Assembly (NCBI GenBank): GCA_030390025.1
Contig: CM059432.1
Coordinates: 10,478,001 to 10,542,000, forward strand
Reading direction: 5' to 3'
Length of the DNA: 64,000 nucleotides
Source of the DNA: Squalus acanthias
Lineage: Eukaryota
The notes beneath the pieces are model-generated. The model saw only the letters and a list, made by a program, of their open reading frames with translations, did no database searches and was not told the origin of the DNA. Shown here one piece after another: positions 1 to 56,787 of this stretch. The translations under genes were made by a program, and so were the position numbers. How positions within the stretch are numbered: the first letter of the stretch is position 1; each line of letters opens with the position of its first letter.

Positions 1-45
1 GAGTTTTAACATTCTCCTGAGAGAGCAGACGGGGCCTCAGTTTAG

Positions 46-1740
46 GTATCACAGGGGGACACAGGGTATCACAGAGATCACAGGGGGTCACAGGGAATCA
101 CAGGGTGTCACAGGAGGGTCACAGGGGCCACAGGGAGTCACAGGGGGTCACAGGGAATCACAGGGAATCACAGGGGTCACAGGGAATCACAGGGGGTCAC
201 AGGGTATCACAGGGAATCACAGGGGTCACAGGGAATCACAGGGAATCACAGGGGTCACAGGGAATCACAGGGTGTCACAGGAGGGTCACAGGGGCCACAG
301 GGAGTCACAGGGAATCACAGGGAATCACAGGGGTCACAGGGAATCACAGGGTGTCACAGGAGGGTCACAGGGGCCACAGGGAGTCACAGGGAATCACAGG
401 GAATCACAGGGGTCACAGGGAATCACAGGGGGTCACAGGGTATCACAGGGAATCACAGGGGTCACAGGGAATCACAGGGGGCCACAGGGAGTCACAGGGG
501 ATCACAGGGGGGTCACAGGGGGTCACAGGGAATCACAGGGAATCACAGGGGTCACAGGGGGGTCACAGGGGGTCACAGGGAATCACAGGGAATCACAGGG
601 GTCACAGGGAATCACAGGGTGTCACAGGAGGGTCACAGGGGCCACAGGGAGTCACAGGGAATCACAGGGAATCACAGGGAATCACAGGGTGTCACAGGAG
701 GGTCACAGGGGCCACAGGGAGTCACAGGGAATCACAGGGAATCACAGGGGTCACAGGGAATCACAGGGGGTCACAGGGTATCACAGGGAATCACAGGGGT
801 CACAGGGAATCACAGGGGGCCACAGGGAGTCACAGGGGATCACAGGGGGGTCACAGGGGGTCACAGGGAATCACAGGGAATCACAGGGGTCACAGGGGGG
901 TCACAGGGGGTCACAGGGTATCACAGGGAATCACAGGGGTCACAGGGAATCACAGGGAATCACAGGGGTCACAGGGAATCACAGGGTGTCACAGGAGGGT
1001 CACAGGGGCCACAGGGAGTCACAGGGAATCACAGGGAATCACAGGGGTCACAGGGAATCACAGGGTGTCACAGGAGGGTCACAGGGGCCACAGGGAGTCA
1101 CAGGGAATCACAGGGAATCACAGGGGTCACAGGGAATCACAGGGGGTCACAGGGTATCACAGGGAATCACAGGGGTCACAGGGAATCACAGGGGGCCACA
1201 GGGAGTCACAGGGGATCACAGGGGGGTCACAGGGGGTCACAGGGAATCACAGGGAATCACAGGGGTCACAGGGGGGTCACAGGGGGTCACAGGGTATCAC
1301 AGGGAATCACAGGGGTCACAGGGAATCACAGGGGGTCACAGGGTATCACAGGGAATCACAGGGGTCACAGGGAATCACAGGGGGCCACAGGGAGTCACAG
1401 GGGATCACAGGGGGGTCACAGGGGGTCACAGGGAATCACAGGGGTCACAGGGAATCACAGGGGGGCCACAGGGAGTCACAGGGGGTCACAGGGAATCACA
1501 GGGGGTCACAGGGTATCACAGGGAATCACAGGGAATCACAGGGGGGTCACAGTGGCCACAGGGAGTAACAGGGGGTCACAGGGGTCACAGGGTATTACAG
1601 GAGGTCACAGGGAATCACAGGGGGTCACAGGGTATCACAGGGGGTCATAAGGAATCACAGGGGGGTCACAGGGAGTCACAGGCTATCACAGGGGGTCACA
1701 GGGGTCACGGGGGGTCACAGGGTATCACAGGGAGTCAAAG
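46..1740. repeat. G-rich minisatellite, 9-11 bp unit TCACAGGG(AA/GG/TA), with higher-order variant blocks
   Basis: Continuous tandem array of TCACAGGG-based units. The variant block GTGTCACAGGAGGGTCACAGGGGCCACAGGGAGT recurs at 105, 272, 351, 619, 689, 986 and 1065. Confidence 0.98.
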
Positions 1741-14364: not shown

Positions 14365-14985
14365 TTACAACCACAAGAACAATGTGCATTTATAACTCGC
14401 TTTTAACTTACCAAAAACGTGCCAAGCAATGTTCCCTCTAATTTTGGGGGGGGCGCGGCCCCTTTAACAGGCTGCACGGCCCATTCAAATTTCCACACAT
14501 GCGCGTTTTTTTCCATTTATAAGCCGGTGAGTGACCTCCACGGGACCTCCAGACCGCTGCACGGGACCTCCAGACTGCTGCACGGGACCTCCAGACCGCT
14601 GCACAGGACCTCCAGACCGCTGCACGGGACCTCCAGACCGCTGCACGGGACCTCCAGACCGCTGCACGGGACCTCCAGACCGCTGCACGGGACCTCCAGA
14701 CCGCTGCACAGCTGCGCGGCCGCACAGCTTAACGGGAGCATTGGCGCTCAACAAGAACAACATCAATGAAAACATTTTTTGACACCGAGCCACATAAGGG
14801 GATATCAGGGCAGCTGACCAAAAGCTCGGTCAAAGAGGTAGGTTTTAAGGAGCGTCTTAAAGGAGGAGAGAGAGAGGTGGAGCGGCGGACAGGTTTAGGG
14901 AGGGAATTCCAGAGCTTAGGGCCCAGGCGGCTGAAAGCACTGCCGCCGATGGTGGAACGATTAAAAACGGGGATGCGCAAGAGGG
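14365..14985 (-). mobile_element. L2 LINE 3' end, interrupted by a MITE
   Basis: ORF 14729-15007 IGGSAFSRLGPKLWNSLP, plus the tail homologous to 57062-57179. Confidence 0.8.
14427..14743. mobile_element. hAT-like MITE containing a 21-bp tandem array
   Basis: TIRs CAATGTTCCC / GGGAGCATTG. Eight copies of CACGGGACCTCCAGACCGCTG at 14539-14706. Confidence 0.7.
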
Positions 14986-16650: not shown

Positions 16651-17585
16651 ATCCTCCAACTCACTGTGAGCACCGCCATGGGAGATCTTCTGGGCCAGTG
16701 ACAAAAAGCACTGCCAACAGATACATTTCCCACGCTCTCCTGGCCGGCCTCCCACCTTGCTCCCTTCGTAAACTTGAACTCATCCAAAACTCTGCTGCCC
16801 GTCTCCTAACTCGTACCAGGTCCCGTTCACCCATCACCCCCTGTGCTCACCTCAACGCCTCGATTTTAAAATTCTCATCCTTGTTTTCAAATCCCTCCCT
16901 GTCTCTGTAATCTCCTCCAGCCCCACAACCCTCCAAGATCTCTGCCCTCCTCCAATTCTGGCCTCTTGCGCATCCCTGATTTTAATCGCTCCACCATTGG
17001 CAGCCGTGCCTTCAGTGGCCTGGGCGTTAAGCTCCAGAACTCCCTCCCTAAACCTCTCCGCCTCTCTACCTCTCCCTCCTCCTTTAAGACACTCCTTAAA
17101 ACCTACCTCTCTGACCAAGCTTTTGGTCATCTGTCCTAACATAAGAACATAAGACGTAGGAGCAGGAGTAGGTCATTTGGCCCCTCGAACCTGCTCCGCC
17201 ATTCAATAAGATCATGGCTGATCTGATCTTGGCCTCAACTCCACTTCCCTACCCGCTCCCCATAACACTTACCTTTCAAAAATCTGTCTGTCTTCACCTT
17301 AAATATATTCAATGACCCAGCCTCCACAGCTCTCTGGGGAAGAGAATTCCAAAGATTCACGACCCTCTGAGAGAAGAAATTCCTCTTCATTTCCGTTTTA
17401 AATGGGTGCCCCCTTATTCTGAAATTATGCCCCCTAGTTCTAGATTCCCCCACAAGGGGAAACATCCTCTCTGTATCTACCGTGTCAAGCCCCTTCAGGA
17501 TCCTATATGTTTCAATAAGATCCCTTCTCATTCTTCTAAACTCCAATGAGTATAGACCCAACCTGCTCAACCTTTCTTCATAAAG

Positions 17586-17805
17586 TGGACATGATGCGGA
17601 GATGCCGGTGTTGGACTGGGGTGGACAAATGTGAGAAGTCGCACAACACCAAGTTATAGTCCAACAGCTTTATTTGAAATCACAAGCTTTCGGAGCGCTG
17701 CTCCTTCGTCAGACTTCACCTGATGAAGGAGCAGCGCTCCGAAAGCTTGTGATTTCAAATAAAGCTGTTGGACTATAACCTGGTGTTGTGCGACTTCTCA
17801 CATTT
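17586..17805. mobile_element. Non-coding Penelope-derived hairpin element
   Basis: 86-bp inverted arms at 17627-17712 and 17720-17805 with a 7-nt spacer and an asymmetric tail shared with 22060-22093. TSD TTTCTTCATAAAG at 17573-85 and 17803-15. Confidence 0.9.
17716..17752 (+). ncRNA. Minimal type I hammerhead ribozyme motif
   Basis: TCAC-CTGATGA-A-GGAGC agc GCTCC-GAAA-GCTT-GTGA: both core boxes present, helix II 5 bp, helix I TCAC/GTGA. Confidence 0.82.
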
Positions 17806-20508
17806 CTTCATAAAGACAACCCTTTCATCTCCGGAATCAACCTCGTGAACCTTCTCTGAACTGCCTCCAATGCAAGTATATCCTTCCTTAAATAAGGAGA
17901 CCAAAACTGTACGCAGTACTCCAGGTGTGGTCTCACCAACGCCCTGTACAGTTGTAACAGGACTTCCCTACTTTTATACTCCATTCCCTTTGCAATAAAG
18001 GCCAACACTCCATTTGCCTTCCTAATTACTTGCTGTACCTGCATGCTAACTTTTTGTGATTCATGTAAAAGGACCCCCAGATCCCTTTGTACCTCAGCAT
18101 TCTGTAATCTCTCCCCATTTAATTAATAATTTGCTTTTTTATTTTTCCTACCAAAGTGGATAACCTCGCATTTTCCCACATTATACTCCATCTGCCAGAT
18201 TTTTGCCCACTCACTTAGCCTATCTATATCCCTTTGGATATTCTTTGTGTCCTCCACACAATTTGCTTTCCCACCTATCTTTGTATCATCAGCAAATTTG
18301 GCTATCCGAGTCATTAGTATAGATTGTAAATAGTTGAGGCCCCAGCACTGATCCCTGTGGCACCCCACTAGTTGGTTTGCCAACCTGAAAATGACCCATT
18401 AATCCCGACTCTCTGTTTTCTGTTAGTTAGCCAATCCTCTATCCATGCTAATATATTACACCCAACCCCGTGAGCTCTTATCTTGTGTAGTAACCTTTTA
18501 TGTGGCACCTTATCGAATGCCTTCTGGAAATCCAAATACACGATATCTACTGGTTCCTCTTTATCCACCCTACTCATTACATCCTCAAAGAACTCCAGCA
18601 AATTTGTCAAACATGATTTCTCTTTCATAAAACCATGCTGACTCTGTTTGACTATATTATGATTTTCTAAATGTCCTGCTATCACTTCCTTAATGATGGA
18701 CGCTATCATTTTCCCAACGACAGATGTTAGGCTAACTGGTCGATAGTTGCCTGCTTTCTGTCTCCCTCCTTTCTTAAATAGGGGCGTTACATTTACGGTT
18801 TTCCAGTCCGTTGGGACCTCTCCAGAATCCAGGGAATTTTGGTAGATTACAACCAATGCATCCACTATCTCTGCAGCCACCTCTTTTAAGACCCTAGGAT
18901 GCAGGCCATCGGGTCCAGGGGACTTGTCCACCTTTAGTCCCATTAGTTTGCCTAGTACTTTCTCTCTAGTGATAGTGATTGTTTTAAGTTCCCCCTCTCC
19001 CCCCCCCCCCCGGCCCAATAACCCCTTGATTATCCATTATTGGGATGCTTTTAGTGTCTTCTACCATGAAGACAGATACAAAATATTTGTTCAAAGTCTC
19101 TGCCATTTCCCTGTTTCCCATTATTAATTCCCCAGTCCCATCCTCTAAGGGACCAGCATTTACTTTAGCTACTCTCTTCCCTTTTATATACCTGTAGAAG
19201 CTCTTACTGTCTGTTTTTATATTTCTTACTAGCTTACTCTCAGAAGCTATCTTCTCTCTCTTTATCATTTTTTTAGTCGTCCTTTGCTGGTTTAATACAT
19301 GGTTCGGTGTCAGGTTTTGTCTGGTAACACTCCCATGCAGCGCCTTGGGACATTTTACTATGTTAAAGGTGCTATATAAATACAAGTTGTTGTTGTTGTT
19401 ACTGTGTAGAATGGCTAGTAATATCTCGCTTGGAGGTGGGAGAGATGAGATGGTAGCGTTATATATGTGGGAAAGAGAACGTGGTTCTGTTTTCCCTACA
19501 TTACAATAACAGTGACTACATTTATAAAGTATTCCATTGGCTACAAATCACTTTGGGACGACCGGAGGTCATGAAAGGTGCTTTGGAATGCAAGTTCCTT
19601 CTCCTTTATGAGCACAGAAAACAAAAATTATTCAGTTATCACCATCCTCTTCGAACTTAATCAGTCACAAGAGTCTTTACCATATTCATCATATTAACTT
19701 CACTTAGCAATCATTTAAATGTAGGTCCTCCTCTCCTATTGGCTTGACTTGCCTTGAAGTAATACTCTGAGTTCACATCGATAATGTTTAATATTTTATT
19801 TATCTCAATGTGGGTCTACCTTAAACTTCTCCCCCCTAGACTATAACCTTCTTTAATCTTTTCTCCCAACTCGTCCCTTGGGATCATTCCTGCGCTTCTC
19901 TCTATCCTCGCCAGCGTAACTATCCAAAGAGCCGGCACAGGCACAGTGGGCCGAATGGCCTCCTTCTGTGCTGTAAGATTCTATCCTCAACAACGTCTGC
20001 TCGCCCCCTTTCGAAGAGTGATTGACCAAAGCTGTAAATCATACCCCAGTGTGGTCTAAACGGTCTCCATTTGGACCTGACTTGGACTGAATATTAACAT
20101 TTTCCCCATCTGTATTATTAGCTTCAGAGAATTGAAATCTGAAGCTTCGGGGGCCAGTGACCAGGGGTTGCTGCATGTGTTTTTGGTTAATATGTACACA
20201 GCTCTAGCTTCCTTCACTTTGCAGTAATGCATTCAGGGAAGCTCCCACATCTGACGTTGTTGTTAATCTCATAGAACGATACTGCACAGAAGGAGGCCAT
20301 TCAGCCCGTCGTGCCTGTGCCGGCTCTTTGAAAGAGCCGTCCAATTTGTCCCGCTCCCCCCCCCCACCCCACCCCCTGCTCTTTCCCCCATAACCCCGCA
20401 AATTTCTCCCTCTTCAAGTATTTAGCTATATCTGATAGAACCACCACACTCCATGTAAAATGAGAAGTCGCACAACACCAGGTTATAGTCCAACAGATTT
20501 ATTTAATT

Positions 20509-20547
20509 TTACAAGCTTTCGAAGCAGTTCGCTCCTTCGTCAGGTAA
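20509..20547 (-). ncRNA. Minimal hammerhead ribozyme motif (left arm)
   Basis: Reverse complement of 21969-22007. Confidence 0.8.
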
Positions 20548-20757
20548 GTTAGCAATGAGAGAATCTCCCAGAATTCACAATTTAAACCCAGACAAATTCT
20601 ATTCACATTATTCCCTACAACAAAGAGCACAGCCAAGACAATGAGATGTGTCCCAGTGGGTACAACGTGTCAAACCACCTGCTGGCTGCATATCCTGTCA
20701 ATTTGTGTTCTTGTGTTTAAAAAAAAAACACCTGGGAAGACCGGCCATGATGTCAAG

Positions 20758-21257
20758 TCACGTTCTGTATCGTGACATGAACCCGATATCACGATTGAGG
20801 CCATCCTCATGAGTGGGGAACTTGGCTATCAGTTTCTGCTCTATGATTTTGCGCTGTCGTGTATCTCGAAGGCCGCCTTGGAGAACGCTTACCCGCAGAT
20901 CCGAGGCTGAATGCCCCTGGCTGCTGAAGTGTTCCCCGACTGGGAGGCAACCCTCCTGCCTGGCGATTGTTGCGCGGTGTCCGTTCATACGTTGTCTCAG
21001 TGTCTGCATGGTCTCGCCGATGTACCATGCTCTGGAGCATCCTTTACTGCAACGTATCAGGTAGACAACGTTGGCCGAGTCACATGAGTATGTACCGTGT
21101 ACCTGGTGGGTAGTGTCCTCACGTGTAATGATGGTATCTGTGTCCATGATTTGGCATGTCTTGCAGAGGTTGCTGTGGCAGGGTTGTGTGGTGTCTTGGT
21201 TGCTGTTCTCCTGAAAGATGGGTAATCTGCTGCGAACGATGGTACTTTTGAGGTTAG
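20758..21257 (-). CDS. Penelope GIY-YIG endonuclease, 5'-truncated ORF (left arm)
   Basis: Mirror of 21259-21758: NVVYLIRC..C...YIGET...LRQRMNGHR...E...GLN. Confidence 0.85.
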
Positions 21258-21758
21258 CCTAACCTCAAAAGTACCATCGTTCGCAGCAGATTACCCATCT
21301 TTCAGGAGAACAGCAACCAAGACACCACACAACCCTGCCACGGCAACCTCTGCAAGACATGCCAAATCATGGACACAGATACCATCATTACACGTGAGGA
21401 CACTACCCACCAGGTACACAGTACATACTCATGTGACTCGGCCAACGTTGTCTACCTGATACGTTGCAGTAAAGGATGCTCCAGAGCATGGTACATCGGC
21501 GAGACCATGCAGACACTGAGACAACGTATGAACGGACACCGCGCAACAATCGCCAGGCAGGAGGGTTGCCTCCCAGTCGGGGAACACTTCAGCAGCCAGG
21601 GACATTCAGCCTCGGATCTGCGGGTAAGCGTTCTCCAAGGCGGCCTTCGAGATACACGACAGCGCAAAATCATAGAGCAGAAACTGATAGCCAAGTTCCC
21701 CACTCATGAGGATGGCCTCAATCGCGATATCGGGTTCATGTCACGATACAGAACGTGA
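21258..21758 (+). CDS. Penelope linker plus GIY-YIG endonuclease, 5'-truncated ORF (right arm)
   Basis: Frame is open from the centre: PNLKSTIVRS...PCHGNLCKTCQI...NVVYLIRCSKGC...YIGET...RMNGHR...VGEHF...GLN, typical of the PLE endonuclease with Cys/His motifs. Confidence 0.88.
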   Translation, partial: PNLKSTIVRSRLPIFQENSNQDTTQPCHGNLCKTCQIMDTDTIITREDTTHQVHSTYSCDSANVVYLIRCSKGCSRAWYIGETMQTLRQRMNGHRATIARQEGCLPVGEHFSSQGHSASDLRVSVLQGGLRDTRQRKIIEQKLIAKFPTHEDGLNRDIGFMSRYRT

Positions 21759-21968
21759 CTTGACATCATGGCCGGTCTTCCCAGGTGTTTTTTTTTTAAA
21801 CACAAGAACACAAATTGACAGGATATGCAGCCAGCAGGTGGTTTGACACGTTGGACCCCCTGGGACACATCTCATTGTCTTGGCTGTGCTCTTTGTTGTA
21901 GGGAATAATGTGAATAGAATTTGTCTAGGTTTAAATTGTGAATTCTGGGAGATTCTCTCATTGCTAAC

Positions 21969-22007
21969 TTACCTGACGAAGGAGCGAACTGCTTCGAAAG
22001 CTTGTAA
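21969..22007 (+). ncRNA. Minimal hammerhead ribozyme motif in the PLE 3' terminal repeat
   Basis: TTAC-CTGACGA-A-GGAGC gaact GCTTC-GAAA-GCTT-GTAA. Helix I TTAC/GTAA covaries with TCAC/GTGA in other copies. AATAAA follows. Confidence 0.83.
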
Positions 22008-22509
22008 AATTAAATAAATCTGTTGGACTATAACCTGGTGTTGTGCGACTTCTCATTTTTGTCCACCCCAGTCCAACGCCGGCATCTCCACATCATGTAA
22101 AATGAGTTAGACCGGTGACTATCGTTCGCTTTTCAAAATGCATTCTGTCTGCTCAATTCACACCTCGGGGCCAAAAACCCCAAGTGTCTTTGGATCTGTT
22201 TGCGATGCTAGAGTAATTGGGAACCCTCATTAGATTTAGTGGCACAGACCTGGGAATTAGATTCCATTGATACGACAGCAATAAACACCCGCCTGTACCT
22301 GAGGCATCAGCAAAATTCCTCTCAGGGTTTCTTCCTGAATACTCCGTTGAATGGAATTACTACTGTTTCTGGAACACCTAGGACGTTTCACTGACATGGT
22401 ACAGTCAGAACGCACAGGTCACCAATAAGAGGTCAAAGTGACTCACGTTTTATTCACGTTGACTTTGTGGTTAAATTGCGATTTTCTCATTAGTTTGTAT
22501 TAAAAAAAA

Positions 22510-23526: not shown

Positions 23527-24822
23527 TGTAAGACGTTTAAATTCACCCTTGTCCTTTAACCCGTTCAACAGTTTCCAAAGTCCAGACCCGTCGAACAGAC
23601 AACATAAAGCCCAAGGATTCAGGAATAAATTCCTTTATTTTAAAATCAGCAAGAGGTTACAAGTAAGCTCACACAAAACCGTTACATATAATACTCCCGA
23701 TTATATCTAAGCAGACGCAGATTTATTCCCTTACTTTAGGATCAAGCGATAATAAGCCAACACTACATACGTACTAACACCAGCGAGTGGTGGGTTCGGC
23801 GATAACTAGACGTACGACTTTAACTGGCAACTGACCAACTGACTGCAGCCCCGAGCGTCTTTTTCCAGCATCTTTTATACCTTAAAATTTGGCAAACCTC
23901 CCACAGCATACGTGTTCCCAATTGTGTGAATAATTGTCAATAGTTGTTTTTCTCTTCTTCTTATCAGTGGTCAATCAATCAGTCAGTGGGCCGCAAGGCC
24001 GATTACATTCCAAAGTCTGAGATTGTTCCTGTTTTCGCAACGCCTTAACAGTTCAATAGCTTCTTCTCCACAGAACTCTGAAGGTCTGTTTCCCTTATAT
24101 GTTAAAAGGCAGCTGGCAGCCTTTACATCTTATAACCGTAGCAGACTGTTCTACATTCCAGCAGAAAGTCTCTGTTCCTGTCCAAGTAGATCCCAGGGGT
24201 GCGGACCACCCCACCAGCCGTAGGAGATCCCAACTCCAACCGCCAGCCCACACCTCCCCCACTCCCAGCCCACACCCTCCCCCACTCCCAGCACCAGCCC
24301 ACACCTCCCCCACTCCCAGCCCACACCTCCCCCACCCCCAGCCCACACCCTCCCCCACTCCCAGCCCACACCCTCCCCCACTCCCAGCCCACACCTCCCC
24401 CACTCCCAGCACCAGCCCACACCCTCCCCCACTCCCAGCCCACACCCTCCCCCACTCCCAGCACCGGCCCACACCTCCCCCACTCCCAGCCCACACCTCC
24501 CCCACTCCCAGCACCAGCCCACACCTCCCCCACTCCCAGCCCACACCTCCCCCACTCCCAGCACCGGCCCACACCTCCCCCACTCCCAGCCCACACCTCC
24601 CCCACTCCCAGCACCAGCCCACACTTCCTTTAATGTGTCTAAAATTACAAAGCAGGTCTGACATATCCACCGAATTTTATCAACCGAGGAAAGCGTTGCC
24701 GTAGCAAACCAATCAGAAGAAACATTTCCAAAATATCAATATCTGATATACTTTATTTTCTTTTAATTAAATAAATCAAATTGAATTTTAATTTTAATTT
24801 TCTGTTTGTGACCCATTACTAC
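23527..24822 (-). mobile_element. Possible solo LTR containing a minisatellite
   Basis: Truncates a CR1 abruptly with TGTAAG and has a candidate end CTACA. Minus-strand AATAAA (~23633) and TATA-like (~23875) motifs. No TSD seen. Confidence 0.35.
24244..24623. repeat. C-rich minisatellite, 22-29 bp unit CCAGCCCACAC(C)CTCCCCCACTC(CCAGCA)
   Basis: Direct tandem array; it generates the Pro-rich and Gly/Trp-rich ORFs. Confidence 0.97.
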
Positions 24823-30678: not shown

Positions 30679-31812
30679 GTTTGTCGGAGGAGAACATTCT
30701 GTAGAAATCAATCCGCAGTTGGGCCCAGAACACTGCCCTGAGGAGCTCCTGCAGCGACGTCCTGGGGCGGAAATGGCTGGCTTCGGCATCAAATGGCTGT
30801 GAAGGAGCTGGCACGGCATTGAAACAATAATTGCGTCTGTTGAAGACAGTCAATAGTTGGACACGCTCATTCTCTATACGAAAAGGTACAAAGGAAACAT
30901 TGTGAGCCACGCTGCGCGATGACTAAATCACAGAGTTATTAGATTGTCAGAACGAAGCTTGAAACGTGCAGGAAAAGATAAACTACACTTGGCTTTTTCA
31001 CCGTGTGTGGAGGTTTCCAGGATCAAGGAAATGTTGGAATTGTCAAAATAACCATGAAAATACCAACGGCTTTGAAGGTTGAAATAAAATGCAGAACAGT
31101 GGGCAGCATTTTATAGAGCAGAGGCCATTGAAGGTAACGATAGTAAATGATCAGTCATAATCACTGTTTACAAAGGCCTCAAACTGACAAGAGTAATTTG
31201 CACAGCATGTTACCCCAGCAAACCTATTCCGAGATCGCAAATAACTTCAAGCGAGCGTTGTCGATTCCTTCGGCTGCACGGCCCTGCCAAAGTTTATGAG
31301 GCGTAAAGTATTTTTCAATATTTGCTCTCGACCGGCCTCCAGCAGGCCTTGTACTTGTCAGATTAGCGACACGGGAAGCGCCAGATGGGATGGGACTGGC
31401 ACCGCACAGCGGAGACAGTGAAAAAAAAACCCACCATGTCACAATGATTGCACAGCTGTCCGCCATTAAAATCTTTTACTGCAAATATCAAATGAGCTGG
31501 CGGGTGTCAGAGCCTGGGTTTTAACTCCCGGGTGGGAAAAGCCGGGGTGGGGGGGGGAACTGCCGATCCTCTCGCACGGGAGTCCCGCCCGATTTTAACA
31601 CAGCCGGGCCTCGGTAACATCCCCGCCGACCCCAAAATGGCAGCTGACGGCCCACCCGTGTGGGGAGAGCACAGTGTGTTTGTCGGTTTGTATTATTACA
31701 CGAGGACAAGTCGTACTGGTTGAATTAAATGAGTCCGACCACACCTTCTGCTCTGTACGTTCGCTTGCTGTGAAAATAAAACAGCTTTAACATTTTGCCT
31801 CTGGCCTCCTCC

Positions 31813-31897
31813 CTGAGGAAGGGGCGATCGATAGCTCCGAAAGCTTGTGATTTCAAATAAAACTGTTGGACTATAACCTGGTGTTGTGCGACCTCTC
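31813..31897 (+). mobile_element. Solo Penelope terminal fragment with hammerhead core
   Basis: CTGAGGA-A-GGGGC gatcgata GCTCC-GAAA-GCTT-GTGA followed by ...GTTGGACTATAACCTGGTGTTGTGCGAC. The 5' strand of helix I is missing. Confidence 0.8.
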
Positions 31898-32252
31898 AAT
31901 TTTCTCCTCCTCTGGCCAGCTATTTTTTCTATGTCCACTTTCGAAAAGATTGGAGCGCAAAAGACATGAATTCAGCTTACATCGCGAGGGGGTTAATAGT
32001 GTTGCACCTCTGGGTTGCGCTGTCGTACGGTTAGATATCGGGCAGCATGGGACGCCTCGGGGCGATGCACTGCGTTATAGGGCGCTAGATAAATGCAAGT
32101 TGTTGTTGTTGTAGAGGTTGTTTCCCAATGGCAATCCCTGGCTCCCTCGGCATTGAAACATGACCTTACGTGCAAAGTATTCTGGGACAGCAAGGCTGCT
32201 TGGCGAACACTGAGCCCTTGTTACTGTTCAGATATGCACTGCAAATGACATG

Positions 32253-35056: not shown

Positions 35057-37545
35057 TTCTCCTGAATTCCCTTTTGGATTTATTGGTGACTATCTTATAT
35101 TTATGGCCCCTAGTTCTGGTCTCACCCATAGGTGGAAACATCTTCTCTATGTCTACCCTATCAAACCCTTTCAGAATTTTAAAGACCTCTATCAGGTCAC
35201 CTCTCAGCCTTCTCTTTTCTAGAGAAAAGAGCCCCAGACTGTTCAATCTTTCCTGATAGGTATAGCCTCTCAGTTCTGATTGAAGGGATAATTACTAGTC
35301 CTAGTCCCTTTAGGGCTACCCCAGATCAGGCGTATTCCCCAGACGTTCACTTTCAACTAAAGTTTGAGGTAGCCGAATCCTAAAGATGCTTAATTGGGTC
35401 TAAAGGTCTGGACCATCTCTCCCTAAAGGAAAGGAACAACCTGAAAATGTTACCGTCCTCCAGATAGCACTTTTAATAAGTTTAGCTAGACTGTAACCTT
35501 CTGGATATTATGAGGGTCTGGAAAACTCCCCCAGAATTCTGCAACTCCTCACCAAAGAGTGTACAGAGATTGAGTTTGCGAGTTTGATACAGAAGTATTA
35601 TGTGAGACAATTCTAAAAATATACAGATTTATTAAAGAACCTACATGTAATTTACAGTTGGTGAGTCAATCACAGCATTAACAGTTCCAAAAAGAGAAAG
35701 CTTTACAATCTTATTATCAGAGATCCTTATTCTCAAATCTTAACTTTACTACAGTTTTACAGTTCATAAACTTATTCAGGATATCCACCAAAATCAAATA
35801 CAGTACCTTTGATCCCCGAGGTACAAAGAGTTGTAGACTTACAGAGCTGTCTCTGAAGCCGAGAATCGCTTTGCCCCTTTACAGCGAGTCTATTATCCTA
35901 TTCGAGAGTTCAATATTTATACCCTTTTCCAGTGGTATTCCCTTTAAGGTTTTCTGCTGATGTAAGCTAATTATCTCTAATCATTTTTCTGCTGACTTCT
36001 GCAATTCTTACAGTCACCTCAGCTGGTAGCAATACAGAATCATGTCTCTCCTCTAGGTATTCTAAGCTTACCATAAAAAACGGTGTAACAGCAGGTGCAT
36101 TTTATTTGATATCATTTTTACTAAGGCCTTCTGTTTTTGCCTCTTTACGAAGTGTAAATTAGAACACCTTGTACAGGGTGAACCTTTATTTTGTTCCGAA
36201 AGGTTCAGACTGTCGGGAGCCTTTAACCTTCTGTTTCAATAAGGTTATTGATTCAGTGTCAACAACTATCTTATCTCTATAGTCAGAATTCTATCACAGC
36301 TTTAGATTGTTGAGGCTTCCAGATTTCCAAACCCAGTCTGTCATGTTTTAATAAGGCCAGAATTCTTTCATAGAATGGTGTATTTTTCTGAATAGTTTAT
36401 ATGGCTTATTCCTTCACATGATATCATTCTCGTAAATCTTTTTTGCACCTTCTCTAGTGCCTCTATATCTTTTTTGTAATATGGAGACCAGAACTGTTCA
36501 CAGTACTCCAAATGTGGTCTAACCAAGGTTCTATATAAGTTTAACATAACTTCTCTGCTTTTAAATTCTATCCCCCATGAAATGAACCCCAGTGCTTTGT
36601 TTGCTTTTTTATGGCCTTATTAACCTGCGTCGCTACTTTTAATAATTTGTGTATCTGCACCCCCAGATCCCCCTGTTCCTCTACCCCATTTAGACACTAT
36701 CCAAGGAGTGTGTAGCCCCCTTCTTCCTACCAAAATGTACCACCTCACACTTATCTATATTGAAGTTCATTTGCCAATTACACTCCCATTCTTCAAGTTT
36801 ATTCATGTCTTCCTGTATTTTTGTCGCAGTCCTCCTCTGTAATAACTACACCTCCCAATTTGGTGTCAGCTGCAAATTTTGAAATTGTACTTCCAATTCC
36901 TCGAGTCCAAATCGTTTATGTAAATGGTGAACAACAGTGGTCCCAGCACCAATCCTTGTGGAACACCACTTCCCACCTTCTGCCAGTCTGAGTAACAACC
37001 CTTAACCCCCTACTCTCTGTTTTCTGTTTTGTAGCCAGCTTGCTATCCATTCTGCTACTTGTCCCCTGCCCCCACAGGTTCTGACCTTAGTCATGAGTCT
37101 ACTATGCAGTACCTTATCACAGGCCTTTTGGAAATCCAAATATGTTATGTCTACTACAGTACCCTTATCTACCCTTTCTGTTACTTCTCCAAAGAATTCA
37201 GTAAGATTGGTCAAGCACAACCAGCCCTTTTGAAATCTGTGCTGAGTACTCTTTATTATAATTTCAGTTTCTAGATGTTTTTCTATTACATCTTTGAGTA
37301 AAGGATTCCATTATCTTTCTTATAACCCCCATCTATTCCTCATCTTAGTCACTTCGATCTATTTGTGCTGATTGTATACCTAGCCCCTATTTATTTTGAG
37401 TGAGGGAATGTGCCCCTCATTTTATTGAGAATGAGGGTAAATTTGCCTCCATTTGTGCTGAGGTCATGTGTGTGTGTGTGTTAAGCTAACTGGTCTATAG
37501 TTCCCTGGATTTGTTCTGGCTCCCTTTTTAAATGTAGGGGTACAT
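35057..37545 (-). mobile_element. Older CR1 LINE interrupted by an LTR-like insert and a 150-bp insert
   Basis: ORFs 34992-35246, 37002-37220 (YLDFQKACDKV) and the FKKGARTNPGNYRPVSLT motif at ~37480-37540. Confidence 0.9.
35281..36418. mobile_element. Probable solo LTR (Gypsy-like) inserted in CR1
   Basis: TG...CA termini with short inverted ends (TGAAGGGATAA / TTATTCCTTCACA). 4-bp TSD TGAT (35277-80, 36419-22). The CR1 sequence resumes across it. Confidence 0.7.
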
Positions 37546-37782
37546 AGAGGCATACATACCCTCCCAATAAATAAATAAATAAATAAATAGAGGGGTACAT
37601 ACCCTCCCGATAAATAAATAAATAAATAAATAGAGGGGTACATACCCTCCCGATAAATAAATAAATAGAGGGGTACATACCCTCCCGATAAATAAATAAA
37701 TAGAGGGGGTACATACCCTCCCGATAAATAAATAAATAGAGGGGTACATACAGTCACGATAAATAAATAGAAGGGTACATAA
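37540..37782. repeat. Tandem repeat (AAAT)n-AGAGGGGTACATACCCTCCCG, ~6 units
   Basis: Direct array with a hairpin-capable core. Confidence 0.92.
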
Positions 37783-39866: not shown

Positions 39867-40430
39867 CCCACCCCCCATCCCATTTTTGCATCCAGGTCCA
39901 CTCACATCAAAATCAAGCCACGCAGGTCCTCTCTCACCAACAGTCTCTGAGACTAGGCAGTCAGCAATGATGACATCATCAGAGGCGACTTTCAGACTGA
40001 AAACACTAATTAGTTCATGGGTTCCCACATGCTGGAACTCAATTGCCCAATTAAGTGAAAATTGCATCATTCATCCACATTAATCTGGAGTCGGGGGGGA
40101 ACCACGAAATGCGGATGACACGACCCCAACCCGACCCCAAGACAAAATCCAGCCCAGTCTGAGCTGCTGCTGCTCATTTTGCATCCAGGTCCTCTCACAG
40201 CAAAGGCCAGGCAGTGTCTGAAAGCCTTCAATGCAGCAGCAATGATGACATCATCAGAGGCGACTTTCAGACTGAAACCACTAATTGGTTCATGGGTTCC
40301 CACATGCTGGAACTCAATTGCCCAATTAAGTGAAAATTGCATCAATGTCCCACATCCAATTGCAGACGGGTGGATAACAGGAAATGCGGATGACACGACC
40401 CCAACCTGCCCCAGTATCAAAATCCAGCCC
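38882..40430. mobile_element. Harbinger-type foldback MITE, family D (outer copy)
   Basis: TIRs GGGCTGGATTTT / AAAATCCAGCCC with TSD ATA (38879-81, 40431-33), inside a GA-rich tract. Confidence 0.88.
39371..40155. mobile_element. Family D MITE nested in its own family member
   Basis: Own TIR pair GGGCTGGATTTTG / CAAAATCCAGCCC. Its left and right halves duplicate the outer halves. Confidence 0.85.
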
Positions 40431-45432: not shown

Positions 45433-47106
45433 GGGGGAAAAATTTGTGTTCGCCAGCAACTGCAGTTAACGGCCGCTGGAAATGGCCACAAAGCTAACCA
45501 AGTAAAATTGGTCTGGGGGTGTGCGTGGAGGTAGGTGGTGCACTGCTCACCTTCCATGTTGGTGGCGTTGCTGGAGGGATCCGAGATGAAGTTCCTGCCC
45601 AGGTCCGGCGTTGCAGCCTCTGAAAGCGAAGCTGTAGAGCTCACGAGGAATTGTGCGTAATGAAGAGGTCTGTGAATTAAAGGGGCCATGCACACTGAAG
45701 CAATACAAAATAAAATGCAGTGAATCAAAACATTTTTCAGCCCTTTCTGCCTTTTAAAAAATATCCAACATTTAAAAGAAGTTCCAAATGTGAATATTCA
45801 GCTCTTAAAGCTGAATTACCTTCCTAACCTCAACAAATGGGAAAACTGCCTCAGCACTAACACAAATGGCTCAGCAAGCCAGGGAAGGGGCACCCATGGT
45901 CTCACACGCGGCACTCCAGCTTTGTGCAGGGGGTCAACACTGCAAGAGTGGCCCTCTACCCACAGGGGCCAGGAGGCCGTCCAGAAAGCACGATGTGGGA
46001 GTACATCACTAAGACCGTCACTGCCACCACCTGGCTCCAGTGCCCAAAGAAGCTTCATGACCTCAGACCACTGGTCAAGGTCAATGAATGCATCTTCAAA
46101 AGCCGTCACTTACCAACTGCACCACTAGCCTCACACACTGCTCAATGCACAACCCCCAATCACTCACCTACCAACAATCTGCACCAATGACGAGGCACAT
46201 TCCTAGCCTCACCTCATCCCCTTGGAGGAGACAGTGCAGGCCATTCTTGGCAGGGGCACGGTTGAGCCCTTGGCCAGCAGCGGGGCTGAAAGAATACAAG
46301 ATGCTGGTATCCTCCTACGTTGTCCTCCTCCTGGCATGCACCTCCAGGTTTCCTGCCCTCCAGTCAGCACAACTCCACCCTTGTGCCTTCCTCATTTCAC
46401 ACACCCAAGAAATGCAGCCTGCCCAGCCAGTGGGACCACAGGCGGATGATTCCATCCCGGATATCCTGGCCACAAAGGAGCTGTCTGGGATGCATCCTTC
46501 CATCTGATTCCTCCTCTTCGGCTTCCTCCTCTTCTGTGTCTTCCTCTTCCCTCTGCAAGTGGATGCTGTAAATGTGAAATGACAGCATAAAATGCTGGAA
46601 ATACTCAGTCGGTCAGGCAGCATGTCGACCTGAGACGTGAACTTTGTTTTTCTCTCCACGGATGTTGCGTGACCTGCTGAGTATTCGCAGCATGTTCTGT
46701 CTTCTCAAGGACCGTCATTTACCATCTGAGCCCTTGCAAGCATCCAGCAGCACTCCTACACACTTAAAAAAAAAAATTCACCTGACTTCACCTGACGAAG
46801 GAGCAGCGCTCCGAAAGCTTGTGATTTCAAATTAAACTGTTGGACTATAACCTGGTGTTGTGCGACTTCTCACATTTGTCCACCCCAGTCCAACACCGGC
46901 ATCTCCACATCTTGGTGAAGTTAAGTCGGCGTTGCACGCGGATTGACGTCACAATGCTGCCATTTTTTTTCCAGCAGCGCAAAGGGGGAGAGGAATATGG
47001 CGGCTGTTGTGGGACCCGCCACCAGCTGGCGAAAGCGCAGCGGCCACCATTTTATCGCCATTTCATGGCGCTACGGAGTGTCAGTAAGGAGATAAATTTC
47101 TAGCCT
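45433..47106 (+). mobile_element. Harbinger-derived element, family A, copy 2
   Basis: Reverse-complement homologue of 2045-3696 with probable TSD TAG. Myb/SANT-like remnant in ORF 45924-46190 (MWEYITKTV..TWLQCPKKLHDL). Confidence 0.85.
46784..46910 (+). mobile_element. Solo Penelope terminus with intact hammerhead motif (46788-46824) and tail
   Basis: TCAC-CTGACGA-A-GGAGC agc GCTCC-GAAA-GCTT-GTGA ... GTCCACCCCAGTCCAACACCGGCATCTCCACAT. Absent from copy 1 of the host element. Confidence 0.88.
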
Positions 47107-52489: not shown

Positions 52490-52983
52490 CATAAGGACAT
52501 AAGGAATAGGAGCAGGAGCAGGCCATTCGCTGATCCAATTTTGGCCTCAACTCCACTTTCCCTGCCCGCTCCCCATACCCCTTGACTCCCCTGTGGCTCA
52601 ACAATCTGTCTATCTCCGCCTTGAATATATTCAATGACTCCGCCTCCACATCTCTCTGGGGTAGAGAATTCCAAAGATTCACGACCCTCTGAGAGAAGAA
52701 ATTCCTCCTCATCTCCGTCTTAAATGGGTGACCCCTTATTCTGAAACTATGCCCCCTAGTTCTAGATTCCCCCACGAGGAGAAACATCCTCTCAGCATCT
52801 ACCCTGTCAATCCCCCTCAGAATCTTATATGTTTCAATAAGATCACCTCTCATTCTTCTAAACTCCAATGAGTATAAGCCCAACCTGCTCAACCTTTCCT
52901 CATAAGACAACCCTTCCATCCCAAGAATCAACCTAGTGAAGCTTCTCTGAACTGCCTCCAATGCAAGTATATCCCTCCTTAAA
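52490..52983 (-). mobile_element. CR1 LINE 3' end
   Basis: ORF 52392-53030. Confidence 0.93.
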
Positions 52984-53304
52984 TTGTTACAATGATACGT
53001 CACGCCAAAGAGCAAGCCAGTCGCCAGCACTCAGAACCACAAATATTGGAGCCAATGTTACTTAACGCTTTGAATTTTGAATGTTATGAAGGGCTTGCGA
53101 TAGTAAATGCCCCTTGATATTTTAGAAATGATAGAATGAATCTTGTGGTCTGCCAGCAAACAGATTTTCCTCCAGTGCAGCAAAGGAAACTGAGCCGTAA
53201 CAAGTGGGCAGCTCCAGAATTTAAAGAATACCTATTTAAGGAAACGTCTGCATTCGTGACATTATGTAGTGGACATCTGTGTATTGAATTTTGATAACTT
53301 TATT

Positions 53305-55373: not shown

Positions 55374-56179
55374 CATTTGGTTATTAGATTCAGTCTTAAA
55401 TAGTGTGTCCAATTTAGGTCTCTTCACGTGGTGGGTGAGACTGAGGCTTTGGAAAGGGTTCAGAGAATGATTCCCAGATTAAAACACCTTAGCTACCCAG
55501 ACAGACTTAAAGAGCTGGGTATGTATACTTTAGAGAGGCGTAGACTCAGCGGCGATTTGATTGAGGTCCACTAAATAATGAAAGGACCAGTTTGTGTGCA
55601 CTCTGACAAATTATTTCAATATGATAGGTTGGAGAGGACTATAGGGTCATGTGTATAAATTTCACAAGGGAAGAAATAGGTTAGATTTCAGCCATGATCT
55701 TATTGAATGGCGGAGCAGGCTCGAGGGGCCAAATGACCTACTCCTGCTCCTACGTCTTATGTTCTTATGTATGTTCTTATATTAAGGGGTTCTTCTTTTC
55801 CTGTAGAATAGTAGACCTCAGGACCAAGTTGTCGGCTTGTGTGGTGAGCGCTGATTCACTGCACATATTCTAAAGAGAGCTGGACCCATTACTAGCTCGA
55901 GCAGAGATCACATCATACAAGAGTTAGATACCAAATAATAGAAGTCATTGTCAGGGTGACCTTCTGGACTAGTTTCAATCGCCTAGATGGATTGGAGATG
56001 AATTTTCCAGATTTTTTTTCCCCCCCACTAATTAGCCTTTGATCTGGTTTGATTCTTCTCTCAGGAGACTACATGGCGCCCGGGGGGTTTGTGGTGGGGA
56101 GGTGCAGGGGTGAGGGAGTCTCTTGCCGTGATGCATAAGGCATCGCAACTATATGGGGCAGTCTAGATGGACCAGCATG

Positions 56180-56787
56180 TCAATAACCAGGGGGCATAGA
56201 TTTAAAATAATTGGTGGAAGGATTAGAGGGGAGTTGAGAAGAACTTTTTTCACCCAGAGGGTGGTGGGGGTCTGGAACTCACTGCCTGAAAGGGTGGTAG
56301 AGGCAGAAATGCTCATCACATTTAAAAAGTACTTGGATATGCACTTGAAGTGCCATAAGCTACAAGGCCAAGGATCAAGAGCTGGGAAGTGGGATTAGAA
56401 TCATAGAATCATAGAAAGTTACAGCACGGAAGGAGGCCATTTCGGCCCATCGTGTCCACGCCGGCCAACAAAGAGCTATCCAGCCTAATCCCACTTTCCA
56501 GCTCTTGGTCCGTAGCCCTGCAGGTTAGAGCATCCCAAGTGCACATCCAAGTACTTTTTAAATGTGGTTAGGGTTCCTGCCTCTACCACCCTTTCAGGCA
56601 GTGAGTTCCAGACCCCCACAACCCTCTGGGTGAAGAAATTTCCCCGCAAATCCCCTCTAAACCTTCCCCCAATTACTTTAAATCTGTGCCCCCTGGTTTT
56701 TGATAGGCTGGATAGCTCTGTGTCGGCCAGCACAGACACGATGGGCCGAATGGCCTCCTTCTGTGCCGTAAATTTCTATGATTCTAT
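56180..56787. mobile_element. CR1 3' end (+) interrupted by an antisense CR1 3' end (56398-56703)
   Basis: ORFs 56153-56398 (+) and 56485-56739 (-). The plus-strand 3'UTR resumes at ~56704. Confidence 0.88.

What the first reader, a model, noticed from the sequence alone, without database searches (positions are those of the whole stretch)
17573..17815. ORF-less ribozyme hairpin retroelement (retrozyme-like) with a 13-bp TSD inside a CR1
Seen: a ~220-bp insert made only of the PLE terminus twice in inverted orientation (86-bp arms, 7-nt spacer) plus the tail, flanked by TTTCTTCATAAAG. It has the same architecture and TSD length as the 1.6-kb palindrome, but its helix II loop differs and matches 46784-46910. 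Inference: either an extreme truncation product of a sister PLE subfamily or an independently amplifying non-autonomous ribozyme element mobilised by PLE proteins.
Basis: partly seen in the sequence, partly recalled or inferred. Interest (0 to 1): 0.7.

Follow-up and report, generated by a model that had tools for sequence, protein, structure and literature searches.

The report
Minimal inverted Penelope-like retroelement insertion
This 220-base hairpin is most likely a one-off, extremely shortened insertion of a very common Penelope-like jumping gene, laid down in the head-to-head form already described for such elements, and not a retrozyme, because its two ribozyme motifs face opposite ways and are predicted to block each other.

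Summary
In detail: 86-bp arms (2 mismatches), 7-nt spacer, one-sided tail and a 13-bp duplication inside a LINE copy. The arms are the terminus of a Neptune-type Penelope-like element (PLE) with a minimal hammerhead motif; the 1.6-kb palindrome nearby carries the GIY-YIG end of the shark PLE protein. The spacer is no linker: it is the family's ordinary upstream sequence. An inverted 5'-truncated copy with a tail at one end is the published standard PLE layout, and hammerhead pairs on opposite strands 100-700 bp apart were reported in 2014. 'Retrozyme' fails: there are no tandem direct units, and the hairpin leaves the hammerhead helices a pairing probability of 0.0. Contigs from four runs show a very abundant family with two 3'-end classes and varied, low-depth joints; no shared hairpin junction appeared, but this locus's own junction was not displayed either, so that test is inconclusive. 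Likely mechanism: both target strands primed at the two tail-bounding sites and the cDNAs were joined head to head. Open lead: two short copies start at the same base, possibly the RNA's 5' end.

The parts
17573..17585 (.). Left copy of the 13-bp target-site duplication
   Evidence: present once in the paralogous LINE stretch
17586..17589 (-). Four extra bases beyond the usual tail end (origin unexplained: untemplated, slipped, or rarely copied downstream sequence)
   Evidence: family tail ends cluster at 17590-17592 (tables 5 and 7); absent from the two other tails in the window
17590..17626 (-). PLE 'tail', about 37 nt, present on this arm only
   Evidence: 30-40-bp one-sided tail described in PMC8557442
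17627..17712 (-). Left arm: PLE terminus starting exactly at the hammerhead CUGA
17680..17712 (-). Minimal hammerhead motif lacking the 5' strand of helix I
   Evidence: helix I positions read U-G, G-U, A-G, A-A
17713..17719 (+). Spacer = native upstream sequence of the right arm; its last four bases are the 5' strand of helix I
   Evidence: same 7 bases at 46785-46791; loose ends behind 17712 begin GTGAAGT in three DNA runs
17716..17752 (+). Complete minimal type I hammerhead motif: helix I 17716-19/17749-52, core CUGAUGA + extra A, helix II 17728-32/17736-40, GAAA, palindromic AGCU without helix III, predicted cut between 17748 and 17749 (after U17)
   Evidence: sequence; descriptor in PMC4209133. 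Cleavage not tested
17720..17805 (+). Right arm: tailless PLE terminus; last 3 bases shared with the duplication
   Evidence: tailless ends of other copies at 17622-17634 in mirror coordinates
17803..17815 (.). Right copy of the 13-bp target-site duplication
17140..19036 (-). Host: decayed 3' part of a LINE (CR1-type by recalled motif)
46785..46911 (+). Single short copy of the same subfamily, with tail, starting at the same base as the right arm
20452..22106 (.). 1.6-kb palindrome of a sister subfamily: two back-to-back GIY-YIG ends, 1-nt native spacer, one-sided tail, 13-bp duplication
31798..31917 (+). Tailless short copy of a third subfamily between 9-bp direct repeats

Best explanation
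A dead-on-arrival, extremely 5'-truncated, head-to-head insertion of a Neptune-type PLE. That identity I put at about 0.85; the number below is for identity plus the following route. The PLE protein (RT + GIY-YIG) cut both target strands 13 bases apart. One 3' end primed reverse transcription at the outer initiation site (giving the arm with the tail), the other at the inner site about 37 nt upstream, helped by 3 bases of A:U pairing (giving the tailless arm). Both cDNAs stopped at the 5' edge of the hammerhead, 7 bases apart, and were joined end to end with at most 1 base of homology, so the longer cDNA supplied the spacer. SHOWN here: anatomy, duplication, native spacer, two family-wide 3'-end classes, kinship to coding PLEs, predicted sequestration of the ribozyme. 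FROM PAPERS: a purified PLE protein cuts and extends both strands and starts at two sites that bound the tail. INFERRED: that both arms came from such paired priming, and how they were joined.
For: Of 15 joints displayed (10 more hidden), 11 join a LINE flank to this terminus, 4 at the tail end (17590-17592) and 7 at the tailless end (17622-17634), each in one contig per run at depth 9-59: the locus uses exactly these two ends. PMC11167929: both strands cleaved and extended, predicted dimer, tail = stretch between the two initiation sites, hammerhead cleavage not needed for insertion in vitro. PMC8557442 and PMC3846280: inverted 5'-truncated copy, one-sided tail, 8-10-bp duplications. PMC4209133: dual minimal hammerheads about 100-700 bp apart on opposite strands. 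The three head-to-head junctions seen all differ: 7-nt spacer here, 1-nt spacer 800 bases upstream in the palindrome, and a 39-nt tail arm joined to a copy at the hammerhead (17629-17712, run X5). Fold-back of a single cDNA cannot make this locus: the loop reads antisense only on the strand whose cDNA lacks the tail (sequence, inference). The palindrome's protein hits shark proteins with RT domains (best 87%, E 4e-89) and shows the CX4CxxC linker before the GIY-YIG motif (motif as).
Against: The two 5' ends lie 7 nt apart here and 1 nt apart in the 1.6-kb palindrome; independent truncations would not coincide, so an extra assumption is needed (both cDNAs ran off one RNA end). PMC3846280 reads such junction palindromes as self-priming on an antisense template. 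The four extra bases at the tail end are unexplained. No genome was held, so no autonomous parent with this exact helix II was seen; kinship to a coding element rests on the 86%-like sister terminus. In one search this locus's own junction was not displayed.
Confidence: 0.62

Rival explanations
1. Same element, other route: the hairpin arose by self-priming (fold-back), for example on an antisense transcript, and the endonuclease then resolved the two ends, one with and one without the tail.
For: Near-perfect symmetry of both palindromes (7-nt and 1-nt spacers); proposed for rotifer PLEs in PMC3846280; arms almost identical (2 of 86; 7 of 801).
Against: No priming stem is visible at the junction (first spacer base differs from the native continuation); a 1-nt loop is hard to fold; the loop-donating strand is tailless here but tailed in the 1.6-kb palindrome; a junction with unequal arms exists; in vitro data show priming on both target strands.
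Confidence: 0.2
2. Collapse after insertion: it began as a long palindrome like the 1.6-kb one and lost its centre.
For: Long perfect palindromes are deletion-prone (general knowledge); a slightly asymmetric centre is what such deletions leave.
Against: The non-palindromic copy at 46785 starts at the same base as the right arm, and the copy at 31813 also starts within about 6 bases of the hammerhead; the 801-bp palindrome has survived 3 kb away; no homology beyond 1 base at the junction.
Confidence: 0.1
3. One reading: the hairpin itself is a non-autonomous unit that is transcribed and re-inserted by PLE proteins (retrozyme-like).
For: It keeps both cis ends and has a clean duplication; pLTR sequence alone can be mobilised in trans (PMC3846280); depth over the spacer bin is not zero and bounds such a class only at 0.7-2.2% of peak terminus depth (my arithmetic), which in so abundant a family could still be many copies.
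Against: One copy in 64 kb. No tandem direct units. Hammerhead helices have pairing probability 0.0 in transcripts of either strand, with or without 200 nt of flank, so no self-cleavage or circle is expected. No high-depth joint among the 15 best-supported of 25. The spacer-bin depth is 0.065-0.070 of the previous bin in all four runs, as expected if only its first position (the end of the ordinary arm) is covered.
Confidence: 0.06

Closest known systems
EN+ Penelope-like elements, Neptune clade; inverted-pLTR insertions with one-sided tail (PMC8557442; PMC3846280; PMC2377424)
   Same: Head-to-head terminal copies, 30-40-nt tail on one arm only, target duplication, hammerhead in the terminus, neighbouring C-terminal GIY-YIG with Cys linker
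   Different: No ORF at all: both arms end at the 5' edge of the hammerhead; duplication 13 bp against 8-10 bp in the rotifer examples
Minimal hammerheads of metazoan PLEs, including dual motifs on opposite strands (PMC4209133)
   Same: 4-bp helix I, extra base between positions 9 and 10.1, G10.1-C11.1, palindromic 15.2/16.2, no helix III; inverted pair at short distance
   Different: Helix II is 5 bp (7-8 bp in the schistosome families); the two cores are 7 bases apart, closer than the 100-700 bp quoted; U at the cleavage position
Animal non-LTR retrozymes (PMC7229834; bioRxiv 10.64898/2026.07.22.740005)
   Same: No ORF, type I hammerhead motif, PLE-terminus origin, size in the 150-450 bp range, long duplication
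   Different: Units are inverted, not tandem direct; motif is the minimal form; structure blocks cleavage; no circle shown
L1 twin priming (recalled, no call)
   Same: Both target strands prime, giving an inversion between duplications
   Different: In L1 the inverted parts are different segments of one RNA; here the same segment is copied twice from two nearby start sites

Membership tests
EN+ PLE insertion (Neptune type) | Terminus belongs to an RT + C-terminal GIY-YIG element with CX2-5CxxC linker | tested here: met
   Met through the sister terminus only: it follows a GIY-YIG end with CX4CxxC whose relatives carry RT. A coding parent with this locus's exact helix II was not seen; no RT tree was built, so Neptune against Nematis rests on motif and host group
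EN+ PLE insertion (Neptune type) | Inverted 5'-truncated copy | tested here: met
EN+ PLE insertion (Neptune type) | 30-40-nt tail at one end only; two 3'-end classes | tested here: met
   4 tail and 7 tailless ends among 11 LINE-to-terminus joints
EN+ PLE insertion (Neptune type) | Target-site duplication against an empty site | tested here: met
   (paralogous, not orthologous, empty site)
Minimal type I hammerhead | Conserved core, extra base at 9/10.1, palindromic 15.2-16.2, helices I and II | tested here: met
   34 of 36 cells paired (94.4%; slid controls 19-53%), one both-sided change; only 4 sequences and not above shuffles (245 of 500), so covariation is weak
Minimal type I hammerhead | Rfam hammerhead model match | tested here: not met
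   0 hits at gathering score in the window; 15 E-value hits on the insert, none a hammerhead, mostly hairpin-driven miRNA models below cut-off
Minimal type I hammerhead | Self-cleavage (as dimer or protein-assisted) | not testable with these tools
   bench assay needed
Non-LTR retrozyme | Two or more tandem direct units, each with a complete hammerhead | tested here: not met
   units inverted; left motif lacks helix I 5' strand; definition
Non-LTR retrozyme | Hammerhead can fold in the transcript | tested here: not met
   pairing probability 0.0 on both strands; about 0.001 even for the right arm alone, against 0.99 for the 46.8-kb copy (predictions)
Non-LTR retrozyme | Canonical type I motif with helix III and loop-loop contacts | tested here: not met
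   minimal form without helix III (sequence)
Non-LTR retrozyme | Accumulates as linear and circular RNA | not testable with these tools
   only contigs available
Self-propagating non-autonomous unit | Identical junction in many copies with different flanks | tested here: inconclusive
   not among 15 of 25 joints displayed; own junction not displayed; upper bound 0.7-2.2% of terminus depth

The most novel reading that the evidence does not exclude
The short copies are not random truncations but 'strong-stop' products: the PLE mRNA starts 7 bases before the hammerhead core, at the A of an initiator-like YCACTTC, and reverse transcription primed at the 5'-proximal tail sites runs off that capped end, giving 95-130-nt hammerhead-plus-tail cDNAs that insert singly or, as here, in pairs. 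Basis: both short sense copies of this subfamily (17713, 46785) begin at that A, and both have G before it where the family's upstream sequence has C, as a copied cap would give. Against: n = 2; each G has another explanation (end of the left arm; a small duplication); the motif occurs at 1.0% of window positions; the D. virilis start site lies further upstream with an intron. If true, such stubs would be a genomic record of the in vivo start and initiation sites of PLE RNA and a ready source of ORF-less hammerhead families. None of searches listed a paper that, by title or abstract start, proposes this; that is a thin check.
Probability: 0.2. Interest if true: 0.55.

Novelty: new member of a known kind. 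Interest (0 to 1): 0.2.

Why it matters
As it stands it is an ordinary product of a known element class, useful as a clean, minimal example: it shows both published initiation sites used on opposite strands of one 13-bp staggered target, and its loop polarity argues against simple fold-back of one cDNA. It would matter more if the shared start point proved general, because how PLEs make inverted ends, and where solo hammerhead stubs and retrozymes come from, is still open; a count of junctions in one shark assembly would test both.

Tried and rejected
No whole genome is held, so the direct junction count could not be run. A 25-base terminus motif found 0 stretches in metagenome and viral contigs; the palindrome's protein found no confirmed locus among 141 candidate stretches in metagenome contigs. 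Rfam gave no hammerhead match; the miRNA hits only reflect the hairpin and are below cut-off. Pfam did not recognise the GIY-YIG fragment (best E 0.2). No RNA holder was listed; run X16 is only guessed to be RNA and holds contigs, so nothing is concluded on expression. Summed contig depth (peaks 4.9, 6.0, 3.1 and 0.35 million against 9-59 for single joints) is read only as 'very abundant family', not as a copy number. The reference laid ended at 17719, so contigs crossing this junction may have been counted among those running over the end (177, 119, 216, 41, both ends together); this is why the junction test is inconclusive. Loose-end lengths at 17712 (median 12-14) were not used to estimate how many copies stop there, because short copies leave too few alignable bases. 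One search used a structure misplaced by one column and is superseded. Free dimer folding of two motifs swapped helix II and did not show the 4-bp helix III: no support either way. A splice acceptor before helix I, as in D. virilis, was considered and not found by eye. Look-ups of earlier findings by sequence, long word list and relatives gave nothing. Chance origin rejected. Supplements of the bioRxiv preprint are closed and may list shark retrozyme families; supplements of the other papers were not opened.

Full report
Observation. The anatomy is as described. The 13-mer TTTCTTCATAAAG occurs at 17573 and 17803 only. Between them lie 41 unpaired bases, an 86-bp arm (17627-17712), 7 bases, and the reverse complement of that arm (17720-17805) with 2 mismatches; the RNA fold is -167.5 kcal/mol, z -22.3. 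Each flank aligns without a break to a paralogous LINE stretch at 52822-52984 that has the motif once, so the duplication is real. One extra A relative to that paralog stands in both copies and so predates the insertion. The host's name, CR1, is recalled from its ORF2 C-terminal motif; RVT_1 hits the same strand further upstream.

What the arms are. Six copies of the terminus lie in the window at four loci: the two arms, a single tailed copy at 46785-46911, a tailless copy at about 31807-31903, and both arms of the 1.6-kb palindrome. In the palindrome the terminus follows a 166-codon frame with CX4CxxC and a GIY-YIG-type motif. A search among longer proteins gave 36 hits of 135 candidates; the best is a shark protein at 87% (E 4e-89) with an RT domain, and two unnamed 881-882-aa relatives show the whole RT-EN frame. 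So the host is very probably a cartilaginous fish and the terminus is the pseudo-LTR of a C-terminal-EN PLE of Neptune type (linker motif as in PMC8557442; no tree built).

The ribozyme motif. All copies carry CUGANGA, an extra A, a helix II closed by G-C, GAAA, a palindromic AGCU without helix III, and a 4-bp helix I. This is the minimal PLE hammerhead of PMC4209133, thought to work only as a dimer and weakly. On four aligned copies 34 of 36 cells pair, against 19-53% when slid; there is one both-sided change, not above shuffles. Rfam does not call it. The spacer's last four bases are the 5' strand of helix I of the right arm; the left arm lacks that strand. In a transcript of either strand, with or without 200 nt of flank, helices I and II have pairing probability 0.0; even the right arm alone prefers another fold (about 0.001), whereas the 46.8-kb copy forms both helices (0.99) (predictions only).

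Evidence from other data. No genome is held. Twenty-one runs from 9 studies hold part of the region. I laid contigs of 4 of them on 17480-17719: two DNA runs of organism A (one may be the source sample), one run of organism B, one guessed RNA run. The family is very abundant in all. Loose ends behind 17712 begin GTGAAGTG in the three DNA runs (75, 53 and 113 contigs; agreement 0.54, 0.51, 0.70), so ACTTCAC is the ordinary upstream sequence, preceded by C. Of 15 joints shown (10 hidden), 11 are other insertions into LINE paralogs, 4 ending at 17590-17592 and 7 at 17622-17634; one is a head-to-head joint of a 39-base tail arm to a copy at the hammerhead; three are internal skips. All are single contigs at depth 9-59. 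This locus's junction is not among them, but the reference ended at the spacer, so the control failed and the test is inconclusive. Depth over the last bin is 0.7-2.2% of the terminus peak and 0.065-0.070 of the bin before in all four runs (my arithmetic), which fits coverage of its first base alone and caps, but does not exclude, a hairpin class.

Mechanism. PMC11167929 shows a purified PLE protein cutting and extending both target strands, starting at two internal sites that bound the tail, without needing hammerhead cleavage. The locus fits: one strand starts at the outer site, the other at the inner site with 3 bases of target homology (8 bases in the 1.6-kb palindrome). The spacer reads antisense only on the strand whose cDNA lacks the tail, so one cDNA folding back could not have made the tailed arm; in the palindrome the polarity is the other way. 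Paired priming with end-to-end joining allows both. Its weak point is that the two 5' ends nearly coincide (7 and 1 bases), which needs both cDNAs to stop at one RNA end; PMC3846280 explains such palindromes by self-priming on an antisense template. I give paired priming 0.62, self-priming 0.2, later collapse of a long palindrome 0.1, a propagating hairpin 0.06.

Comparison with what is known. An inverted truncated copy with a tail at one end is called typical in PMC8557442, PMC3846280 and PMC2377424. Dual minimal hammerheads about 100-700 bp apart on opposite strands, read as truncated PLEs, are in PMC4209133. Animal retrozymes are defined as tandem direct units expressed as circles and are themselves proposed to derive from PLE termini, with sharks among the hosts sampled. 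The locus works like a PLE insertion and meets the tested PLE features; it fails three tested retrozyme features. A search for Penelope + shark + hammerhead ribozyme listed one review only, so this family's motif may be undescribed, but as one more member.

What was read. bioRxiv 10.64898/2026.07.22.740005: parts 1-3 of 5 (abstract to discussion), supplements closed. PMC11167929: parts 1-2 of 4. PMC4209133: parts 1-2 of 4. PMC2377424: parts 1-2 of 4 and passages. PMC3846280: passages and Discussion. PMC8557442 and PMC7229834: passages only. Others: search listings. L1 twin priming, the initiator and splice-donor consensus, and cap copying by RTs are recalled.

Open lead. Both short sense copies of this subfamily start at the same A, seven bases before the core, inside an initiator-like motif, with G in front where the family has C. 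That could mark the capped 5' end of the element's RNA and make these stubs run-off products (probability 0.2); two cases, each with a mundane alternative, do not show it.

Verdict. Real, tidy and ordinary: a minimal inverted PLE insertion; new member of a known kind; interest 0.2.

Noticed in passing
window 46776-46912: The single tailed copy has no duplication; against the paralogous repeat at 2256-2457 about 200 bp of host sequence are missing at the site, and the 5' junction shows a 9-10-base duplication starting at a TTCAC shared with the target.
   Followed up: partly
   Followed up: partly
window 20452-22106: The palindrome's 13-bp duplication overlaps the tailless arm by 8 bases and the tail end by 4-5 bases, so the target resembled both initiation sites; its 1-base spacer is native to the right arm; 7 mismatches in 801.
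   Followed up: partly
window 20541-20549 (+) and mirror near 21967-21975 (-): The antisense strand across the palindrome subfamily's hammerhead start reads CAG|GTAAGT, a perfect splice-donor consensus (recalled); several shark gene models contain the PLE segment fused to host proteins, which may be exon capture or annotation error.
   Followed up: no
window 17586-17589: Four bases beyond the family's usual tail end; origin unexplained.
   Followed up: partly
window 56172-56711: Inverted repeat with 227-nt arms, 86% complementary, 86 nt apart.
   Followed up: no
window 1-1650, 14494-14745, 24180-24670, 37514-37769: Tandem arrays with units of about 10, 21, 23-28 and 35 bases; the first keeps two reading frames open for over 500 codons.
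   Followed up: no
window 39884-40300: Local direct duplication with 275-293-base spacing.
   Followed up: no
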